Part shown: in pieces, positions 673 to 30,429 of the stretch
How positions within the stretch are numbered: position 1 is the first letter of the stretch
Layout: each line of letters begins with the position of its first letter
Source: a virus
Taxonomy: Duplodnaviria > Heunggongvirae > Uroviricota > Caudoviricetes
Virus record (IMG/VR): IMGVR_UViG_2778261315_000003
Length of the DNA stretch: 41,902 nt
Reading direction: 5' to 3' (one strand)
The notes under the pieces: generated by a model
Told to the model about the DNA's origin: nothing
The model's database searches: none
Seen by the model: only the letters and a program-made list of their open reading frames with translations
Position numbers and translations under genes: made by a program

Positions 673-1191
673 GTGATGAAATTAAAAAAATGTCTTCTGC
701 CTGTGGCAATGTTAGCGTCATTTACTCTGGCAGGATGCCAGTCAAATGCTGATGATCATGCCGCCGATGTTTATCAAACCGATCAACTGAATACCAAACA
801 AGAAACTAAAACCGTTAATATTATTTCCATTCTTCCCGCAAAAGTTGCCGTAGACAACGCCCAAAATAAACGGAACGCACAAGCCTTCGGCGCGCTTATT
901 GGCGCTGTCGCTGGCGGTGTTATCGGCCACAACGTCGGGTCTGGCAGCAATTCCGGAACGACAGCAGGTGCAGTTGGCGGCGGAGCTGTTGGCGCAGCAG
1001 CGGGTTCTATGGTGAATGATAAAACCTTAGTGGAAGGTGTTTCTTTAACATATAAGGAAGGCACCAAAGTGTATACCTCCACCCAGGTGGGTAAAGAGTG
1101 CCAGTTTACGACAGGTTTAGCCGTTGTTATTACCACGACGTATAACGAAACGCGTATTCAGCCAAATACCAAATGTCCTGAAAAGAGCTAA
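673..1191 (+). CDS. outer-membrane lipoprotein with glycine-zipper domain (YcfJ / 17-kDa-antigen-like)
   Basis: Signal peptide ending in lipobox LAGC; Gly/Ala-rich zipper FGALIGAVAGGVIGHNVGSG...AVGGGAVGAAAGS resembling E. coli YcfJ by recall; RBS-coupled to next gene. Confidence 0.7.
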   Translation: MMKLKKCLLPVAMLASFTLAGCQSNADDHAADVYQTDQLNTKQETKTVNIISILPAKVAVDNAQNKRNAQAFGALIGAVAGGVIGHNVGSGSNSGTTAGAVGGGAVGAAAGSMVNDKTLVEGVSLTYKEGTKVYTSTQVGKECQFTTGLAVVITTTYNETRIQPNTKCPEKS

Positions 1192-1206
1192 TAATCAGGA
1201 GGAGTC

Positions 1207-1746
1207 ATGAAGAAAGTTTTTCTTTGCGCCATCTTAGCCTCCTTAAGCTATCCGGCTATCGCCTCATCATTGCAGGATCAACTCTCGGCTGTCGCAGAAG
1301 CGGAACAGCAAGGTAAAAATGAAGAGCAAAGGCAGCATGACGAATGGGTCGCGGAGCGCAACAGGGAAATCCAGCAAGAGAAGCAACGTCGCGCAAACGC
1401 CCAGGCCGCGGCTAATAAAAGAGCGGCAACGGCAGCAGCGAATAAGAAAGCTCGTCAGGATAAACTGGACGCCGAAGCCACTGCGGACAAAAAACGCGAT
1501 CAAAGTTATGAAGATGAGCTACGTAGCTTAGAGATTCAGAAGCAAAAACTGGCGCTGGCGAAAGAAGAAGCCCGCGTTAAGCGCGAAAACGAATTTATCG
1601 ATCAGGAACTGAAGCACAAAGCTGCGCAAACCGATGTGGTGCAATCTGAAGCTGACGCAAACAGAAATATGACTGAAGGCGGTCGCGATCTGATGAAAAG
1701 CGTGGGTAAAGCAGAAGAGAACAAATCGGACAGCTGGTTTAACTAA
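1207..1746 (+). CDS. secreted coiled-coil protein, K/E/R/A-rich, unknown function
   Basis: N-terminal signal peptide MKKVFLCAILASLSYPAIASS; charged low-complexity body; good SD AGGAGG upstream; followed by terminator. Confidence 0.6.
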   Translation: MKKVFLCAILASLSYPAIASSLQDQLSAVAEAEQQGKNEEQRQHDEWVAERNREIQQEKQRRANAQAAANKRAATAAANKKARQDKLDAEATADKKRDQSYEDELRSLEIQKQKLALAKEEARVKRENEFIDQELKHKAAQTDVVQSEADANRNMTEGGRDLMKSVGKAEENKSDSWFN

Positions 1747-9536: not shown

Positions 9537-9557
9537 AGTCGATTGGTTGAGGTTCAT

Positions 9558-9884
9558 ATGAGCAGAAGATATGTCAAGGAGCTGGCTATAGAGTCTGGCA
9601 CCCCTTTGGGTATCGTTCCTGGCTCCAACTATGCCAAGGCTTTAAACCGAGACTCTGTCGTCAAAGTTATATCAAGAGACATGAATATGGTCGGAGACGA
9701 TCTCAGACGGTCAGAAAATCGTGTTTATGCTGAATATATAGTAAAGAACGGAAAAAAAATTGCAGCGCCTGCTGGCGGAAAATGGGCAATAGTGACAGGG
9801 AAAAACTCAAATGCAAGAGGAAAACCAGAAGCTAAAGGAATGTCCTTCGACAAATATGCAAAAATCTATTGGGCAACCAAGTGA
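9558..9884 (+). CDS. hypothetical basic protein (about 108 aa)
   Basis: ORF with GAGGT RBS; Lys/Arg-rich; first gene of an operator-controlled two-gene cassette. Confidence 0.45.
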   Translation: MSRRYVKELAIESGTPLGIVPGSNYAKALNRDSVVKVISRDMNMVGDDLRRSENRVYAEYIVKNGKKIAAPAGGKWAIVTGKNSNARGKPEAKGMSFDKYAKIYWATK

Positions 9885-10359
9885 TAACGAAGAAACTGAG
9901 TTCGAGGAAGTTGAGGAAGGGCTAAGTAACGAGATCATTCAACACCCAGATGCCTTCACAAGAGTTCTTGATCGCCCTGAAATTCAGGAGATAGTTGTCG
10001 CTCACCATGCGTTTCAGGGTCCGCTTCCTCCCCCCTATCTGCTTCGCGGGTATCAGGATATTTTACCTGATGCCCCCGAACGCATCTTCCAGCTGACGGA
10101 GAAGGAGTTTGCTCACCGCCAGAAAATGGAGGAAAAGGCACTTGACGGGGCTATTAATAGAGATAAACGTGGGCAGTGGTTTGGCCTGAGTGCAACTATT
10201 TTTACAGTAGCTTGTGCAACATTATTAGGTTTAACAGGTCATGAAGTTCTAGCTGGCACAGTGATCGGTACAGTTGTTGCAGTGGCTGGTATTTTCGTTC
10301 TTAGACAAAAACCAAGCATCAAGAAGAAATCTGAAGACAACAAACCTGAAGAAAAGTAA
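9856..10359 (+). CDS. membrane protein, DUF2335-like (2 C-terminal TM helices)
   Basis: Acidic N-terminal region; motif HHAFQGPLPPPYLLRGYQDILPDAPERIF as recalled for DUF2335; two TM helices near C-terminus; start could be 9811 or 9856. Confidence 0.55.
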   Translation: MQKSIGQPSDNEETEFEEVEEGLSNEIIQHPDAFTRVLDRPEIQEIVVAHHAFQGPLPPPYLLRGYQDILPDAPERIFQLTEKEFAHRQKMEEKALDGAINRDKRGQWFGLSATIFTVACATLLGLTGHEVLAGTVIGTVVAVAGIFVLRQKPSIKKKSEDNKPEEK

Positions 10360-10382
10360 GCCCGCGCTGCGGGCTTTTTTGT
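10359..10382 (+). terminator. rho-independent terminator
   Basis: GCCCGC-GCTG-CGGGC followed by TTTTTTG immediately after the stop codon. Confidence 0.6.
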
Positions 10383-10452
10383 GGGCGAAACAAAAGTCAG
10401 TGCTACACTCATTGACGCCACATTGAGGTGGTTTATAGATGGAAATTTCACA

Positions 10453-10614
10453 ATGAAAAAAGCATTTGCTGCACTGTTCGTTTTGTTGTCTCTGGTAGCT
10501 TCAACTCAGGCCTTTGCCGGTCGTTGTCAGCACGACAGCGATACTGCCGCTGACGGCTCCCGCTGCGGTGGGCATTCTGCGGATTCCCGCCCGGGCGGCG
10601 GTGGCATTCGTTAA
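10453..10614 (+). CDS. small secreted Cys-containing peptide (about 53 aa)
   Basis: Start at internal Met MKKAFAALFVLLSLVASTQAFA (signal peptide), Gly/Ser/Asp-rich mature part with 2 Cys; candidate TTGACG-16-TATAGA promoter upstream; terminators on both sides. Confidence 0.45.
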   Translation: MKKAFAALFVLLSLVASTQAFAGRCQHDSDTAADGSRCGGHSADSRPGGGGIR

Positions 10615-10645
10615 AAACAAGGCCGCGAAAGCGGCCTGTTTGATC
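10612..10645. terminator. bidirectional terminator between convergent genes
   Basis: GGCCGC-GAAA-GCGGCC hairpin flanked by A-run on one side and T-run on the other. Confidence 0.55.
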
Positions 10646-11495
10646 ACTGTGCAGTTTTCGCTGATCGATTTTCAGCTCTAAATTCAAGAACCGTTTCAAT
10701 ATTTCTTTCCTTCAGCATATCAATAACATTTTTATTCATTTGACTATCACTGGTTAATAACTGGTAAACGTTGCTTCTCTCTTTATCAGAGTTTTCTTTA
10801 ACAGCTGCTTTGCATGCCAAATGCTTATTGAAATTTTCTACATCGCTAGTACAGGAATTTACGGCTGCTGATGAAATATCAGACGCTGAAGAAACACCGT
10901 CATCCAAACGTTTTATAGCATTTTCTATACATGAGTTAAGGGAATAAACGACAACTGAGCGATACCCTTCAGACGCACACCATTCTAAATTTCTTGAAGG
11001 ATCGAGTGGTTTTACTTCGCTGGATTGAATTAACTTGTCAAAAACTGACTTATATTCAATCTGTTTTTTATCTATAGCCCATACTTCAGTAGCTGATTTA
11101 TAATTCCCCGTATGCCTATTAACATCAAATCCATGTTTTATAAGCAAATCTGCCCATGAAAGATTTATTGATTCATTGTTATGAGGCCATTTTCCTGTCA
11201 GAACCGCCCCCATAGACCCCATATATCCGCCATATGATGGTATAGCACCATGGCTCAGTAACTTCTCTGCAACCACAGGGCAATTAATTACATAAGAGGC
11301 GTAAAGCCCATTCCATAAAGCCCCTCTATAGTAATCGCCACGATTAGGTTCTTTTAAGTCGATAGCCTTTGATAATTGTTCGCACGTTTTGCATGCATCA
11401 AAGTTATCCTTATTGCATTGCAATGAACTGGCAGCTGTAGGATTTACAGAGACTATTGAAAGCACTATGCCAAAAAACAAATTTATTTTTTTCAT
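10644..11495 (-). CDS. AT-rich secreted protein of unknown function (moron), possibly ankyrin-repeat-like
   Basis: 283 aa; N-terminal signal peptide MKKINLFFGIVLSIVSVNPTAA; visibly lower G+C than neighbours; segments ...AEKLLSHGA... and ...ADLLIKHGFDVN... loosely fit ankyrin consensus; start 1 bp after the gp16-like stop. Confidence 0.7.
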   Translation of the reverse strand: MKKINLFFGIVLSIVSVNPTAASSLQCNKDNFDACKTCEQLSKAIDLKEPNRGDYYRGALWNGLYASYVINCPVVAEKLLSHGAIPSYGGYMGSMGAVLTGKWPHNNESINLSWADLLIKHGFDVNRHTGNYKSATEVWAIDKKQIEYKSVFDKLIQSSEVKPLDPSRNLEWCASEGYRSVVVYSLNSCIENAIKRLDDGVSSASDISSAAVNSCTSDVENFNKHLACKAAVKENSDKERSNVYQLLTSDSQMNKNVIDMLKERNIETVLEFRAENRSAKTAQ

Positions 11496-24650: not shown

Positions 24651-24943
24651 TCCTGTTCACTGGCCTCTTTGGCCATCTTCAAATACTGTTCAGGGCAATG
24701 CGCCATAACGCGCTGAAACAGTTCCAGCGCCAGATTGCGTTGCCCCTCATTAAATGCCATTGCCATAGCGTCCATCGGTGAGATAGCGGAAAACACACGG
24801 CCTTTCTCCAGCACCGACCAGACAACGCGACGCCCCTGTTCACTGCTCATGACAAAGCGAATGTCATCAATTTCACGCTGTGCCATGTCACGTTGCTTAC
24901 GGGCGTTTTCTTCTTTCAGTTGATCATCTTCGTAATCTGTCAT
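24647..24943 (-). CDS. hypothetical small head-module protein
   Basis: 98 aa acidic ORF coupled between portal and scaffold. Confidence 0.45.
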   Translation of the reverse strand: MTDYEDDQLKEENARKQRDMAQREIDDIRFVMSSEQGRRVVWSVLEKGRVFSAISPMDAMAMAFNEGQRNLALELFQRVMAHCPEQYLKMAKEASEQE

Positions 24944-27267: not shown

Positions 27268-27344
27268 GTGGCATTAGCTCAGTTGGACAGAGCAACCGCC
27301 TTCTAAGCGGTTGGTCGCAGGTTCGAATCCTGCATGCCACGCCA
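27268..27344 (+). tRNA. tRNA-Arg (anticodon UCU)
   Basis: Cloverleaf folded by hand: acceptor GTGGCAT/ATGCCAC, D-arm GCTC..GAGC, anticodon stem ACCGC/GCGGT with loop CTTCTAA, T-arm GCAGG-TTCGAAT-CCTGC, discriminator G, encoded CCA. Confidence 0.9.
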
Positions 27345-27962: not shown

Positions 27963-27975
27963 CGCCGTGACATGT

Positions 27976-28010
27976 CACAAACAGCCAGCCGATGAGCTGG
28001 CTTTGTTTTA
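27976..28010. terminator. terminator hairpin between convergent moron and terminase genes
   Basis: AGCCAGC-CGATGA-GCTGGCT followed by TTGTTTT. Confidence 0.5.
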
Positions 28011-30195: not shown

Positions 30196-30429
30196 TCAAA
30201 ATCCATCAAATTCATCGTAAAAACTCTCGTCAAGATACCCTTCCCATTTACCGCGAATGAAAATTACATCCTCGCCGCAAGGGTGCTGACTGTCGATAAC
30301 TATATCCCTCCTGGCGCAACCATACTTATGCATGAGAAATTTAACCTCTTTCGGAAAATTTGCTGAGTTATCTCTCATATCTTCAAGGTCGTAGCGTATT
30401 TTTGGCATAACACCTTCGTGACATGTCAC
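30196..30429 (-). CDS. hypothetical protein
   Basis: 77 aa ORF, coupled in early/nin-like operon. Confidence 0.4.
   Translation of the reverse strand: MTCHEGVMPKIRYDLEDMRDNSANFPKEVKFLMHKYGCARRDIVIDSQHPCGEDVIFIRGKWEGYLDESFYDEFDGF

What the first reader, a model, noticed from the sequence alone, without database searches (positions are those of the whole stretch)
10386..10645. Self-contained mini-cassette encoding a small secreted Cys-containing peptide
A roughly 53-aa ORF with a clear signal peptide and a Gly/Ser/Asp-rich mature part with two Cys is bracketed by two intrinsic terminators and preceded by a candidate sigma-70 promoter (TTGACG-16-TATAGA). Small secreted phage-encoded peptides are poorly annotated and can act as signals or toxins.
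Basis: seen in the sequence. Interest (0 to 1): 0.45.

Follow-up and report, generated by a model that had tools for sequence, protein, structure and literature searches.

The report
Phage moron encoding small secreted peptide
A real, self-contained prophage gene cassette encodes an exported two-cysteine peptide of about 31 residues; the cassette is an ordinary phage "moron", but the peptide belongs to a large family, found in several bacterial phyla, whose function nobody has studied.

Summary
The ORF is real. It runs from 10453 to 10614 (+) and encodes 53 aa: a Sec-type signal peptide (MKK, hydrophobic core, AFA|G), then a 31-aa Gly/Ser/Asp-rich part with two invariant Cys. In 80 related phage contigs there are 33 different coding sequences but only one peptide, and all 22 variable sites are third codon positions. 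Across 118 coding sequences dN/dS is 0.05 for the mature part.

The 280-bp unit from the upstream terminator to the downstream hairpin sits between many different flanks. It occupies the accessory slot at the 3' end of the virion/ejection-protein operon of epsilon15-like prophages. phiV10 keeps only a 3' relic of it. This is a classic moron.

A conserved TAnnnT element (TGcTACACT, 10401-10409) followed by a conserved 5' hairpin (10417-10432) is the better candidate.

The gene is already annotated ("hypothetical" or "transmembrane anchored protein"; PHROG 14503). It has no Pfam family, no solved structure and no literature. The core motif C-x4-D-x-A-x-DGSRCG-x-R-x4-RPGG recurs in about 570 protein clusters from Proteobacteria, cyanobacteria and myxobacteria, alone or as a terminal module of longer exported proteins. 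Its function is unknown. The window's copy carries a rare R41H change at a near-invariant residue.

The parts
10358..10376 (.). Bidirectional intrinsic terminator (AAGCCCGC-GCT-GCGGGCTT + T6). It ends the upstream DUF2335 gene and marks the 5' edge of the mobile cassette.
   Evidence: found on both strands; homology to other phages begins at 10347/10359, and the flanks upstream of it differ.
10382..10387 (+). Candidate -35 hexamer TGGGCG. It is TGGACG in most E. coli copies. It lies 16 nt upstream of the -10.
   Evidence: It is a weak match (3/6; 4/6 in the common allele). Inferred, not tested.
10401..10409 (+). Favoured promoter element: an extended -10, TGcTACACT (hexamer TACACT at 10404-10409).
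   Evidence: the A at position 2 and the T at position 6 are invariant in 39 diverse leaders; 91 of 106 unique leaders have TAnnnT 3-7 nt before the stem (13 different hexamers), against 21% in shuffles.
10412..10439 (+). It is present but not favoured.
   Evidence: not accepted by the scan; the -35 is not conserved outside the E. coli type. The implied start site near 10446 removes the SD-like GGAA.
10417..10432 (+). Leader stem-loop GCCAC-AUUGAG-GUGGU, at or next to the predicted 5' end of the mRNA (start site near 10416).
   Evidence: fold; 100% of cells paired in 20 distinct leaders, against 22-56% when slid; 2 pairs have double changes; other stem versions at the same place (GCCGC/GCGGC, GCCGTC/GATGGC, GGCTATC/GATAGCC, TTGCC/GGCAA). 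A single hairpin is not significant on its own.
10441..10444 (+). Shine-Dalgarno-like GGAA, 8 nt before the ATG.
   Evidence: Enterobacterial homologues have GGA/GGT/AAGG at the same place. Alphaproteobacterial homologues have strong GGGGG/GGAG sites.
10453..10614 (+). Coding sequence of the 53-aa precursor, stop codon included. RefSeq annotates the common allele as WP_000708858.1.
   Evidence: 22 of 22 variable sites among 80 loci are at codon position 3; dN/dS is 0.18 for the signal peptide and 0.05 for the mature part; phrog_14503, E = 2e-39.
10453..10518 (+). Signal peptide, residues 1-22 (MKK / AFAALFVLLSLVA / STQAFA). Predicted SPase I cleavage is after Ala22.
   Evidence: Sequence features. 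Its sequence is variable but its character is conserved in homologues, always with A-x-A. It aligns with the cytochrome b562 signal peptide.
10519..10611 (+). Mature peptide, residues 23-53, GRCQHDSDTAADGSRCGGHSADSRPGGGGIR. Cys25 is at 10525-10527 and Cys38 at 10564-10566. The rare allele His41 is at 10573-10575 (A at 10574).
   Evidence: C25, A32, G35, C38, R46, G48, G49 are invariant in the three family alignments; D34, S36 and G39 in two of them and >=90% in the third; R41 is nearly invariant. R41H occurs in 15 contigs, against at least 1000 for R41. AF2 pLDDT is about 81 for residues 23-42.
10620..10637 (.). Downstream hairpin AGGCCGC-GAAA-GCGGCCT. It is the 3' edge of the cassette and also the terminator of the convergent 283-aa gene (10644-11495, - strand).
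   Evidence: a GC-rich hairpin directly follows the stop codon in nearly all enterobacterial homologues; the same hairpin is annotated as a terminator in phiV10.

Best explanation
The region is an autonomous phage moron in the accessory slot of an epsilon15/phiV10-like (Uetakevirus-type) E. coli prophage.

Proposed sequence of events, with the status of each step:
1. The unit is insulated by a terminator on each side (shown).
2. It is transcribed from its own sigma-70 promoter, an extended -10 at 10401-10409 (inferred from conservation).
3. The mRNA begins at or next to a small conserved stem-loop, 10417-10432. This most likely protects the 5' end (inferred).
4. Translation starts at ATG 10453 and gives a 53-aa precursor (supported by the selection pattern).
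5. The precursor is exported by Sec and cut by signal peptidase I after Ala22 (inferred from sequence).
6. The 31-aa product is oxidised in the periplasm to a Cys25-Cys38 loop of 12 intervening residues (inferred).

The mature peptide is one copy of a widespread, uncharacterised mini-domain of about 26 residues, C-x4-[DQ]-x-A-x-D-G-S-R-C-G-x-R-x4-R-P-G-G. Elsewhere the same motif is the terminal module of longer exported or membrane proteins. I therefore think it most likely works as a small binding module for a conserved envelope component or ion on the outer face of the inner membrane. In the lysogen it would then act as a lysogenic-conversion factor that alters the envelope, possibly affecting superinfection.

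My probabilities: real, translated, exported peptide on a moron, about 0.9. Promoter and leader assignment, about 0.6. Envelope-binding or lysogenic-conversion role, about 0.3.
For: Coding and under selection:
- 80 IMG/VR loci hold 33 distinct coding sequences but one peptide. 22 variable sites are all at codon position 3. The only position-2 difference is the window's own R41H.
- Nei-Gojobori dN/dS over 118 coding sequences is 0.18 for the signal peptide and 0.05 for the mature part.
- Indels of +2 and -1 nt occur just 5' of the ATG.
- Alphaproteobacterial homologues have strong Shine-Dalgarno sites.

Export:
- The n/h/c layout with A-x-A is kept in every homologue while the signal-peptide sequence drifts.
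- The only hits to solved structures are other cleaved signal peptides.

Moron:
- Homology to other phages covers exactly 10347/10359-10639.
- At least 8 different upstream and at least 8 different downstream flank classes occur.
- GC is 0.56-0.59 in the cassette, against 0.31-0.44 beside it.
- phiV10 lacks the gene but keeps its last ~24 nt and the terminator.
- The immediate neighbours are not conserved: 4 of 80 and 9 of 80.
- The slot is the same in unrelated phages, beside the end of the ejection-protein genes.

Promoter and leader.

Family breadth and modular use:
- 24 species, including rhizobia, cyanobacteria and Polyangiaceae.
- 900 clusters at 90% identity.
- 573 representatives at 50% identity with E <= 1e-3, many of them longer proteins with the motif right after a signal peptide or at the C-terminus.
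- AF2 gives a compact loop with pLDDT about 81 for residues 23-42.
Against: - There is no expression data of any kind. Nothing was found in the literature.
- The promoter scan finds no sigma-70 site in the cassette. The favoured -35 is poor: 3/6 in the window.
- The leader hairpin has only 5 bp and is not significant on its own. Fold z = -0.58; 155 of 500 shuffles do as well. Its two outer-middle pairs never vary, and a covariance model did not reach the more divergent leader types.
- Function is inferred only from architecture and position. There is no Pfam, NCBIfam or PADLOC family, no fold match and no conserved partner gene.
- Very strong conservation across phyla is unlike typical fast-evolving exclusion proteins.
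- A subset of longer proteins (P0156, P0171, P0196) has a signal peptide, a domain, a second hydrophobic segment and then the motif. That layout could place the motif in the cytoplasm, which would undercut the disulfide inference.
- The window's allele has His at the near-invariant Arg41 and may be impaired.
Confidence: 0.7

Rival explanations
1. The N-terminal hydrophobic segment is not cleaved. The product is a 53-aa single-pass inner-membrane protein (N-in, C-out) that displays the motif on the periplasmic face, as the database name 'transmembrane anchored protein' implies.
For: The name is given by NCBI, UniRef and TL-2011b. In many longer family members the motif is tethered directly to a true transmembrane helix.
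Against: The hydrophobic core is only about 13-14 residues. It is followed by a canonical A-x-A site that is conserved in all homologues. The name is an uncurated label. No experiment is on record.
Confidence: 0.15
2. The peptide is a superinfection-exclusion factor. It blocks the ejection or peptidoglycan-hydrolase proteins of incoming podoviruses, analogous in position to P22 SieA and in loop chemistry to the CKPHDC loop of Ivy (the Ivy and SieA facts are from my own knowledge).
For: It occupies the same slot next to the 3' end of the ejection or internal-virion protein genes in several unrelated phages. These neighbours include proteins with SLT, 'endolysin-domain' and LPD22/ART-PolyVal domains. 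The enterobacterial loop starts C-Q-H-D.
Against: Family members sit in non-phage core-genome and metal-resistance contexts. The Q-H-D positions are not conserved outside Enterobacterales. There is no PADLOC hit. dN/dS of 0.05 is atypical for arms-race genes.
Confidence: 0.12
3. The peptide is a periplasmic metal-ion (Cu, Ca or Zn) binding peptide or buffer.
For: Cys, Asp and (in enterics) His residues are invariant. The D-x3-D-G-x2-C stretch resembles the end of the DxDxDG calcium loop of Excalibur domains (my own knowledge). One lineage lies inside a copper/arsenic resistance island, between a glutaredoxin-MauE fusion and a membrane protein.
Against: The central Asp of DxDxDG is an invariant Ala here. 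No Excalibur or other metal-domain hit appears even at E <= 10. His is not conserved across the family. The metal-island context is one lineage only.
Confidence: 0.12
4. The peptide is an extracellular signal, toxin, bacteriocin or RiPP precursor.
For: Small Sec-exported Cys peptides with toxin activity exist in E. coli, for example STb (my own knowledge). There is a weak NCBIfam hit to the His-Xaa-Ser repeat precursor HxsA3 (E = 0.05).
Against: The HxsA3 score is 13.4 against a cut-off of 65. No maturase, exporter or immunity gene is nearby, and the neighbours vary. The family is common in soil and aquatic bacteria and cyanobacteria. The motif also occurs as a fixed module of membrane proteins.
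Confidence: 0.05
5. The stretch is a non-coding spacer between two terminators (or an sRNA), and the ORF is there by chance.
For: The ORF is short and GC-rich. A weak Rfam Trp_leader hit lies at 10269-10382 (21.5 bits against 41).
Against: Variation is at third codon positions only. dN/dS is 0.05. The amino-acid motif is conserved across phyla at saturated dS. The Rfam hit is simply the upstream terminator.
Confidence: 0.01

Closest known systems
PHROG families phrog_14503 ('membrane associated protein', category moron/auxiliary/host takeover) and phrog_3117; NCBI/UniRef 'transmembrane anchored protein' (WP_000708858.1, A0A0A1A7U0_ECOLX, TL-2011b gp43)
   Same: Full-length match (E = 1.8e-39 and 3e-35). 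The sequence is identical apart from R41H. These are the same gene family.
   Different: They are sequence clusters with an uninformative label. No function, structure or experiment is attached. The window carries the minor H41 allele.
Phage morons as defined by Hendrix and colleagues: promoter-gene-terminator units inserted between conserved phage genes (description in PMC3573123)
   Same: The cassette has its own flanking terminators and a candidate promoter. It is present or absent among close relatives (phiV10 has only a relic). Its GC content is distinct. It sits in a known variable slot.
   Different: Expression from the prophage has not been shown. The same gene family also lives outside phages.
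P22 SieA / immI-region accessory genes of P22-like and epsilon15-like podoviruses (my own knowledge of the P22 map)
   Same: Same genomic position, between the ejection-protein genes and the tailspike/anti-repressor region. Arc, Ant and Bro-N genes are next door in TL-2011b and L261.
   Different: There is no sequence similarity. SieA is a multi-pass inner-membrane protein, whereas this is an exported peptide of about 31 aa. No exclusion phenotype is known.
Excalibur extracellular Ca-binding domain (PF05901, DxDxDGxxCE; my own knowledge)
   Same: It is extracytoplasmic, has a Cys pair and ends in D-G-x-x-C.
   Different: The third position of the loop is an invariant Ala rather than Asp. The Cys spacing is 12 rather than about 28 residues. 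There is no Pfam match even at E <= 10.
Small Sec-exported disulfide peptides of E. coli such as heat-stable enterotoxin STb, and the disulfide loop CKPHDC of the periplasmic lysozyme/lytic-transglycosylase inhibitor Ivy (my own knowledge)
   Same: A short precursor with a cleavable Sec signal peptide, and a disulfide-closed loop as the likely functional element.
   Different: There is no sequence similarity. The family's distribution in environmental bacteria argues against an animal-directed toxin. The C-Q-H-D start of the loop is confined to Enterobacterales.

Membership tests
Phage moron | A discrete unit present in some phages and absent from close relatives at the same position | tested here: met
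   phiV10 and typing phages match only 10592-10639. phiV10 keeps a ~24-nt 3' relic plus the terminator behind Bro-N/p22. At least 8 different flank classes occur on each side.
Phage moron | Own transcription terminator(s) | tested here: met
   Hairpins at 10358-10376 and 10620-10637. A hairpin directly after the stop codon is conserved in homologous cassettes.
Phage moron | Own promoter | tested here: inconclusive
The consensus scan finds none. A conserved TAnnnT with TG extension lies at 10401-10409.
Phage moron | Base composition different from the neighbours | tested here: met
   GC is 0.56-0.59 over 10440-10679, against 0.38-0.44 upstream and 0.31-0.40 downstream.
Phage moron | Expressed from the repressed prophage | not testable with these tools
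   This needs RNA-seq or a reporter in a lysogen.
Sec/SPase I secretory precursor | Basic n-region, hydrophobic h-region of about 10-15 residues, and small residues at -3 and -1 | tested here: met
   MKK / AFAALFVLLSLVA / STQ-A-F-A|G. The same pattern is in all homologues. It aligns with the cytochrome b562 signal peptide. No dedicated predictor was available.
Bacterial lipoprotein (SPase II) | Lipobox [LVI][ASTVI][GAS]-C, with Cys immediately after the -1 residue | tested here: not met
   The sequence is F-A-G-R-C, or F-A-G-N-C in most homologues. An extra residue separates Gly from Cys. Only rare members have AGC or AAC.
PHROG 14503 / 3117 | Significant full-length profile match | tested here: met
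   E = 1.8e-39 (profile positions 1-53 of 53) and 3e-35.
Excalibur (PF05901) | Pfam profile match and a DxDxDG calcium loop | tested here: not met
   No hit for any of 28 members at E <= 10. The loop is D-T-A-A-D-G with an invariant Ala32.
His-Xaa-Ser repeat precursor HxsA3 (NF038309) | Score above the curated cut-off, with radical-SAM partners nearby | tested here: not met
   13.4 bits against a cut-off of 65. There are no such neighbours.
Known anti-phage defence proteins (PADLOC) | Profile match | tested here: not met
   No hit for the peptide or its seven neighbours.

The most novel reading that the evidence does not exclude
The roughly 26-residue two-cysteine motif (C-x4-D-x-A-x-DGSRCG-x-R-x4-RPGG) is an ancient, undescribed extracytoplasmic mini-domain. 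It binds one universal component of the diderm envelope, such as an ion, a peptidoglycan or lipid-linked element, or a conserved periplasmic enzyme. Podoviruses have repeatedly captured it as a stand-alone moron, placed beside their ejection-protein genes, to alter the lysogen's envelope or block superinfection with a 3-kDa peptide.
Probability: 0.15. Interest if true: 0.7.

Novelty: new member of a known kind. Interest (0 to 1): 0.42.

Why it matters
The cassette is carried by about 9% of complete E. coli genomes (499 of 5,426). It is also found in Klebsiella, Salmonella, Cronobacter, Pectobacterium and other prophages.

Its product is among the most strongly constrained parts of these mosaic accessory regions. 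Even so, it has no Pfam family, no structure and no publication.

The same mini-domain appears in rhizobia, cyanobacteria and myxobacteria and as a module of larger envelope proteins. Finding its ligand would therefore annotate hundreds of protein clusters at once. It would also show what a 3-kDa periplasmic peptide can do for a lysogen.

The peptide is small enough to synthesise chemically, so the question is cheap to test.

Tried and rejected
- Pfam, NCBIfam and PADLOC scans of the peptide, of 28 family members and of 80 longer motif-bearing proteins gave no family. Among the 80 there were single stray hits only (SNase, UL45).
- A profile search of PDB sequences matched only other signal peptides.
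- AlphaFold2 was run twice. Mean pLDDT was 70 and 75, and the loop residues 23-42 reached about 81. Foldseek against PDB gave nothing below E = 6.9.
- The Rfam scan gave only a sub-threshold Trp_leader hit, which is the upstream terminator.
- Literature searches for the family name, the accession and the motif string returned nothing. A paper on phiV10-like morons and a microproteome survey gave background only.
- I looked for a Rosetta-stone link. An HMM of the cytoplasmic domain fused to the motif in 9 proteins found no relative among 6,630 ORFs of all fetched loci.
- I looked for conserved partner genes. DUF2335 and the 283-aa ORF are not conserved neighbours. The copper/arsenic-island neighbours (glutaredoxin-MauE, a PRK09272-like protein, a 252-aa membrane protein) are confined to one lineage.
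- The covariance model of the leader (R1) retrieved only the leader types already in its seed, so the more divergent stems rest on my own hairpin listing.
- Single-sequence shuffle tests of the hairpin are not significant.
- The longer 77-aa reading from GTG 10381 is rejected. The upstream part is not conserved and is interrupted by indels in relatives.
Full report
**What is in the sequence.**
The ORF runs from ATG 10453 to TAA 10614 on the + strand. It encodes MKKAFAALFVLLSLVASTQAFAGRCQHDSDTAADGSRCGGHSADSRPGGGGIR. Residues 1-22 have the layout of a Sec signal peptide: MKK, a 13-residue hydrophobic core, then STQ-A-F-A with small residues at -3 and -1. The remaining 31 residues contain 8 Gly, 4 Ser, 4 Asp, 4 Arg, 2 His and 2 Cys.

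Upstream, 10358-10376 is an 8-bp GC-rich hairpin followed by T6. It overlaps the stop codon of the preceding DUF2335 gene (9811-10359) and scores as a terminator on both strands. Downstream, 10620-10637 is a 7-bp hairpin with a GAAA loop; the surrounding region folds at -22.5 kcal/mol, z = -2.9. The scan calls this hairpin a terminator only on the - strand, where it follows the convergent 283-aa ORF 10644-11495. On the + strand its tail is GTTTGAT.

The promoter scan does not accept them, and it finds no promoter in the cassette.

**It is a real gene.**
- RefSeq already annotates the ORF (WP_000708858.1, 'hypothetical protein'). Phage TL-2011b calls it 'putative transmembrane anchored protein'.
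- It matches phrog_14503 ('membrane associated protein', moron category) at E = 1.8e-39, and phrog_3117.
- Eighty IMG/VR contigs of the E. coli type hold 33 distinct coding sequences but a single peptide. All 22 variable sites among them fall at third codon positions. The only other difference is the window's own G-to-A change at 10574, which gives R41H.
- Over 118 distinct gap-free coding sequences, dN/dS is 0.18 for the signal peptide and 0.05 for the mature part, with dS about 1.4.
- Relatives carry +2 and -1 nt indels immediately 5' of the ATG. The N-terminal extensions drawn by some gene callers are not conserved. So 10453 is the start, not GTG 10381.
- A non-coding reading is effectively excluded. 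The only Rfam hit, Trp_leader at 21.5 bits against a threshold of 41, is the upstream terminator.

**It is a moron.**
The window is an epsilon15/phiV10-like prophage inserted next to yfgI. The best phage match is EC.W1-9 at 99%. The gene order is lysis genes, tailspike, an accessory region (Bro-N protein, a 113-aa ORF, DUF2335, the peptide), and then the convergent 3' end of the virion operon: the 283-aa ORF, the 1129-aa internal virion protein, a 916-aa protein and a T7 gp14-family core protein.
- Similarity to other phages (phiv142-3, HEMP4, TL-2011b, Phi05 contigs) covers just 10347/10359-10639, from terminator to hairpin.
- Among 80 related contigs there are at least 8 different upstream and at least 8 different downstream flank classes.
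- The immediate neighbours in the window occur in only 4 of 80 (DUF2335) and 9 of 80 (283-aa ORF) related contigs. A Bro-N gene is nearby in 78 of 80.
- GC is 0.56-0.59 in the cassette, against 0.31-0.44 beside it.
- phiV10 lacks the gene but retains its last ~24 nt and the terminator directly behind Bro-N/p22.
- 499 of 5,426 complete E. coli genomes carry the cassette.
- Unrelated phages hold the gene in the same place, facing the end of the ejection-protein genes. Examples are tailspike | peptide | 2197-aa LPD22/ART-PolyVal protein; Adhesin_E-like | peptide | 709-aa SLT protein; and lysis cassette | peptide | 892-aa protein.
- In 157 of 199 viral loci, a convergent ORF of at least 400 aa lies within 1.5 kb downstream of the peptide gene.

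**Promoter and leader.**
I aligned 110 unique upstream regions from enterobacterial cassettes. They share one layout: a TAnnnT hexamer, 3-7 nt, a 4-8 bp stem-loop, then CTACACA (TTATAGA in the E. coli type), an SD-like GGA/GGT/AAGG, then ATG.
- In 39 diverse leaders the A at position 2 and the T at position 6 of the hexamer are invariant.
- 91 of 106 unique leaders have such a hexamer, in 13 different versions, ending 3-7 nt before the stem. The figure is 21% in shuffled sequence.
- In the window this element is TGcTACACT (10401-10409), an extended -10. It has a poor -35, TGGGCG (10382-10387), 16 nt upstream. Most E. coli copies have TGGACG there.
- The implied start, near 10416, puts the stem-loop GCCAC-AUUGAG-GUGGU (10417-10432) at the very 5' end of the mRNA.

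The evidence for the stem is real but modest.
- On 20 distinct leaders the five pairs are 100% paired, against 22-56% when the 3' partner is slid. Two pairs show double changes.
- More divergent cassettes have other stems at the same place: GCCGC/GCGGC, GCCGTC/GATGGC, GGCTATC/GATAGCC, TTGCC/GGCAA, CGCCG/TGGCG.
- A single 5-bp hairpin is not significant against shuffles.
- A covariance model did not reach beyond the leader types in its seed.
- An operator palindrome at +1 remains an alternative reading.

Its -35 hexamer is ATAAAG, TCAAAG or TCAGAG in the Klebsiella, Kluyvera and Buttiauxella cassettes. I therefore rank it second.

**The peptide family.**
Homologues in E. coli, Shigella, Klebsiella, Cronobacter, Salmonella, Pectobacterium and Dickeya keep the mature part almost unchanged while the signal peptide drifts.
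- A scan of one genome per species found the gene in 24 species. These include Mesorhizobium, Methylobacterium, Agrobacterium, Phyllobacterium, Rhodoferax, Tolumonas, three cyanobacteria and a Polyangiaceae MAG.
- A profile search gave 900 clusters at 90% identity.
- An exhaustive HMM search of 1.84 billion representatives gave 573 hits at E <= 1e-3 and 83 at E <= 1e-10.
- The core is [A-x-A]|G-N-C-x4-[DQ]-[TR]-A-[SA]-D-G-S-R-C-G-x-R-[SA]-x-[DS]-x-R-P-G-G, usually one residue before the stop.
- C25, A32, G35, C38, R46, G48 and G49 are invariant in all three family alignments; D34, S36 and G39 are invariant in two of them and at least 90% conserved in the third. R41 is nearly invariant.
- The window's copy has His41. 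This is a natural minor allele, seen in 15 contigs against at least 1000 for Arg41. Other minor alleles are R37S and D34A.

The motif also occurs in longer proteins:
- signal peptide, motif, 'RNPDTDW', a transmembrane helix, then a cytoplasmic domain of about 150 aa;
- signal peptide, motif, a proline-rich linker, then a secreted domain;
- an N-terminal domain, a transmembrane helix, then the motif at the extreme C-terminus;
- tandem copies.

None of the partner domains is in Pfam. There is no Pfam or NCBIfam family, no solved relative and no fold match for the motif. AlphaFold2 gives a compact loop with pLDDT about 81 for residues 23-42. All genomes named so far belong to diderm lineages.

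Non-phage contexts are varied:
- a copper/arsenic resistance element, where the gene lies between a glutaredoxin-MauE fusion, a PRK09272-like membrane protein and a 252-aa membrane protein;
- a core-genome site between bacA and ffh in a 1.65-Mb genome;
- a site between greA and carB;
- islands with MucR-like regulators and integrases.

**How it most likely works.**
Shown: the cassette is an insulated, mobile, protein-coding unit, and its mature peptide is under strong purifying selection.

Inferred from sequence:
- transcription from its own promoter in the lysogen;
- a 5' stem-loop that probably stabilises the message;
- Sec export and cleavage after Ala22;
- a Cys25-Cys38 disulfide formed in the periplasm.

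Inferred from architecture: the motif is used as a terminal module next to the membrane in many exported proteins, and it is conserved across phyla. So the free peptide most likely binds a conserved envelope component or ion rather than a fast-evolving phage protein. Its recurrent position in the lysogenic-conversion/exclusion slot suggests that the benefit to the phage is an envelope change in the lysogen. I put about 0.3 on that functional class.

More specific versions score lower: an Ivy-like block of ejection hydrolases at about 0.12, metal binding at about 0.12, and an uncleaved membrane-anchored form at about 0.15.

One observation cuts against the simple topology. A few longer proteins (P0156, P0171, P0196) carry a signal peptide, a domain, a second hydrophobic segment and then the motif. 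That layout could place the motif in the cytoplasm.

**Comparison and verdict.**
In kind, this is a textbook moron carrying a small exported protein. The gene is already in RefSeq and PHROGs under uninformative names. It is not a lipoprotein (no lipobox), not an Excalibur domain (Ala in place of the central Asp, and no profile hit), not an HxsA3 precursor (13 bits against 65) and not a known defence protein.

What is new here:
- the corrected promoter and leader anatomy;
- the demonstration of very strong selection on the mature peptide;
- the finding that the peptide is one instance of a broad, undescribed mini-domain;
- the note that the window's allele is altered at a near-invariant Arg.

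Interest is moderate. The feature is not surprising for a phage biologist. It is, however, a cheap and well-defined target for anyone working on bacterial microproteins.

Noticed in passing
window 27967-27978, 30418-30429 (exact) and 24880-24891 (1 mismatch); also L002, L003, L007, L008, L016, L268 just after the cassette's hairpin: The 12-bp palindrome GTGACATGTCAC recurs at intergenic boundaries of this phage type. There are 3 copies in the window against 0.09 expected. It directly follows the peptide cassette's terminator in about 72 of 80 related contigs and in phiV10, but not in the window, where TTTGATCACTGTGCAG takes its place. At 27967 it sits 5 nt after a stop codon, just before a terminator hairpin. 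It could be an operator or a module-boundary/recombination sequence.
   Followed up: partly
L268 (phiV10) 2480-2560 compared with window 10590-10640: phiV10 lacks the peptide gene. It keeps the last ~24 nt of its coding sequence, the terminator and the palindrome, fused behind the Bro-N gene and a 29-aa ORF. This is a deletion relic of the cassette.
   Followed up: yes
window 10644-11495 (-): A 283-aa ORF with its own signal peptide (MKKINLFFGIVLSIVSVNPTAASS). It is AT-rich (GC 0.31-0.40), matches phrog_6118 and has no Pfam family. It is present in only 9 of 80 related contigs. This is a second secreted accessory gene, tucked at the end of the virion operon.
   Followed up: partly
window 9543-9884 and 9811-10359 (+): A 113-aa ORF (phrog_10654) overlaps the DUF2335 membrane-protein gene (phrog_3996) by 74 nt. 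The two hit the same numbers of related contigs in each locus group (4 E. coli-type, 7 Klebsiella-type), which suggests they travel as a pair.
   Followed up: no
window 10574 (codon 41), 10385, 10432, 10593: Over 10300-10700 the window differs from a closely related, representative E. coli prophage copy (locus L001, strain FDAARGOS_497) at four positions. These are R41H at a near-invariant Arg (a natural minor allele, 15 contigs against at least 1000), a weaker -35 (TGGACG to TGGGCG), a G-C to G-U change in the outer stem pair, and one synonymous change. Other minor alleles in E. coli are R37S (194 contigs) and D34A (27 contigs).
   Followed up: yes
window 10439-10456 (+): A five-codon upstream ORF (ATG GAA ATT TCA CAA TGA, MEISQ*) has a stop codon that overlaps the main ATG (ATGA). 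It is present in the E. coli-type leader only. It is not conserved as an ORF in Klebsiella-type leaders.
   Followed up: partly
proteins P0156, P0171, P0196: A conserved sub-family has a signal peptide, a domain of about 80 aa, a second hydrophobic segment and then the motif at the C-terminus. If the second segment spans the membrane, the two-Cys motif would be cytoplasmic. That does not fit the periplasmic disulfide model.
   Followed up: no
L252-L256 (around the P0096 homologue): In one lineage the peptide gene lies in a fixed block on an integrase-bearing element. The block is an 88-aa ORF, a glutaredoxin-MauE fusion, a PRK09272-like membrane protein, the peptide and a 252-aa membrane protein. 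It sits between copA/copB/csoR-like copper genes and ars genes.
   Followed up: partly
window 27268-27344 (+); window 673-1746: The prophage carries a tRNA-Arg (anticodon TCT). The left end of the window is host DNA (yfgH, yfgI), so the prophage is integrated next to yfgI.
   Followed up: partly
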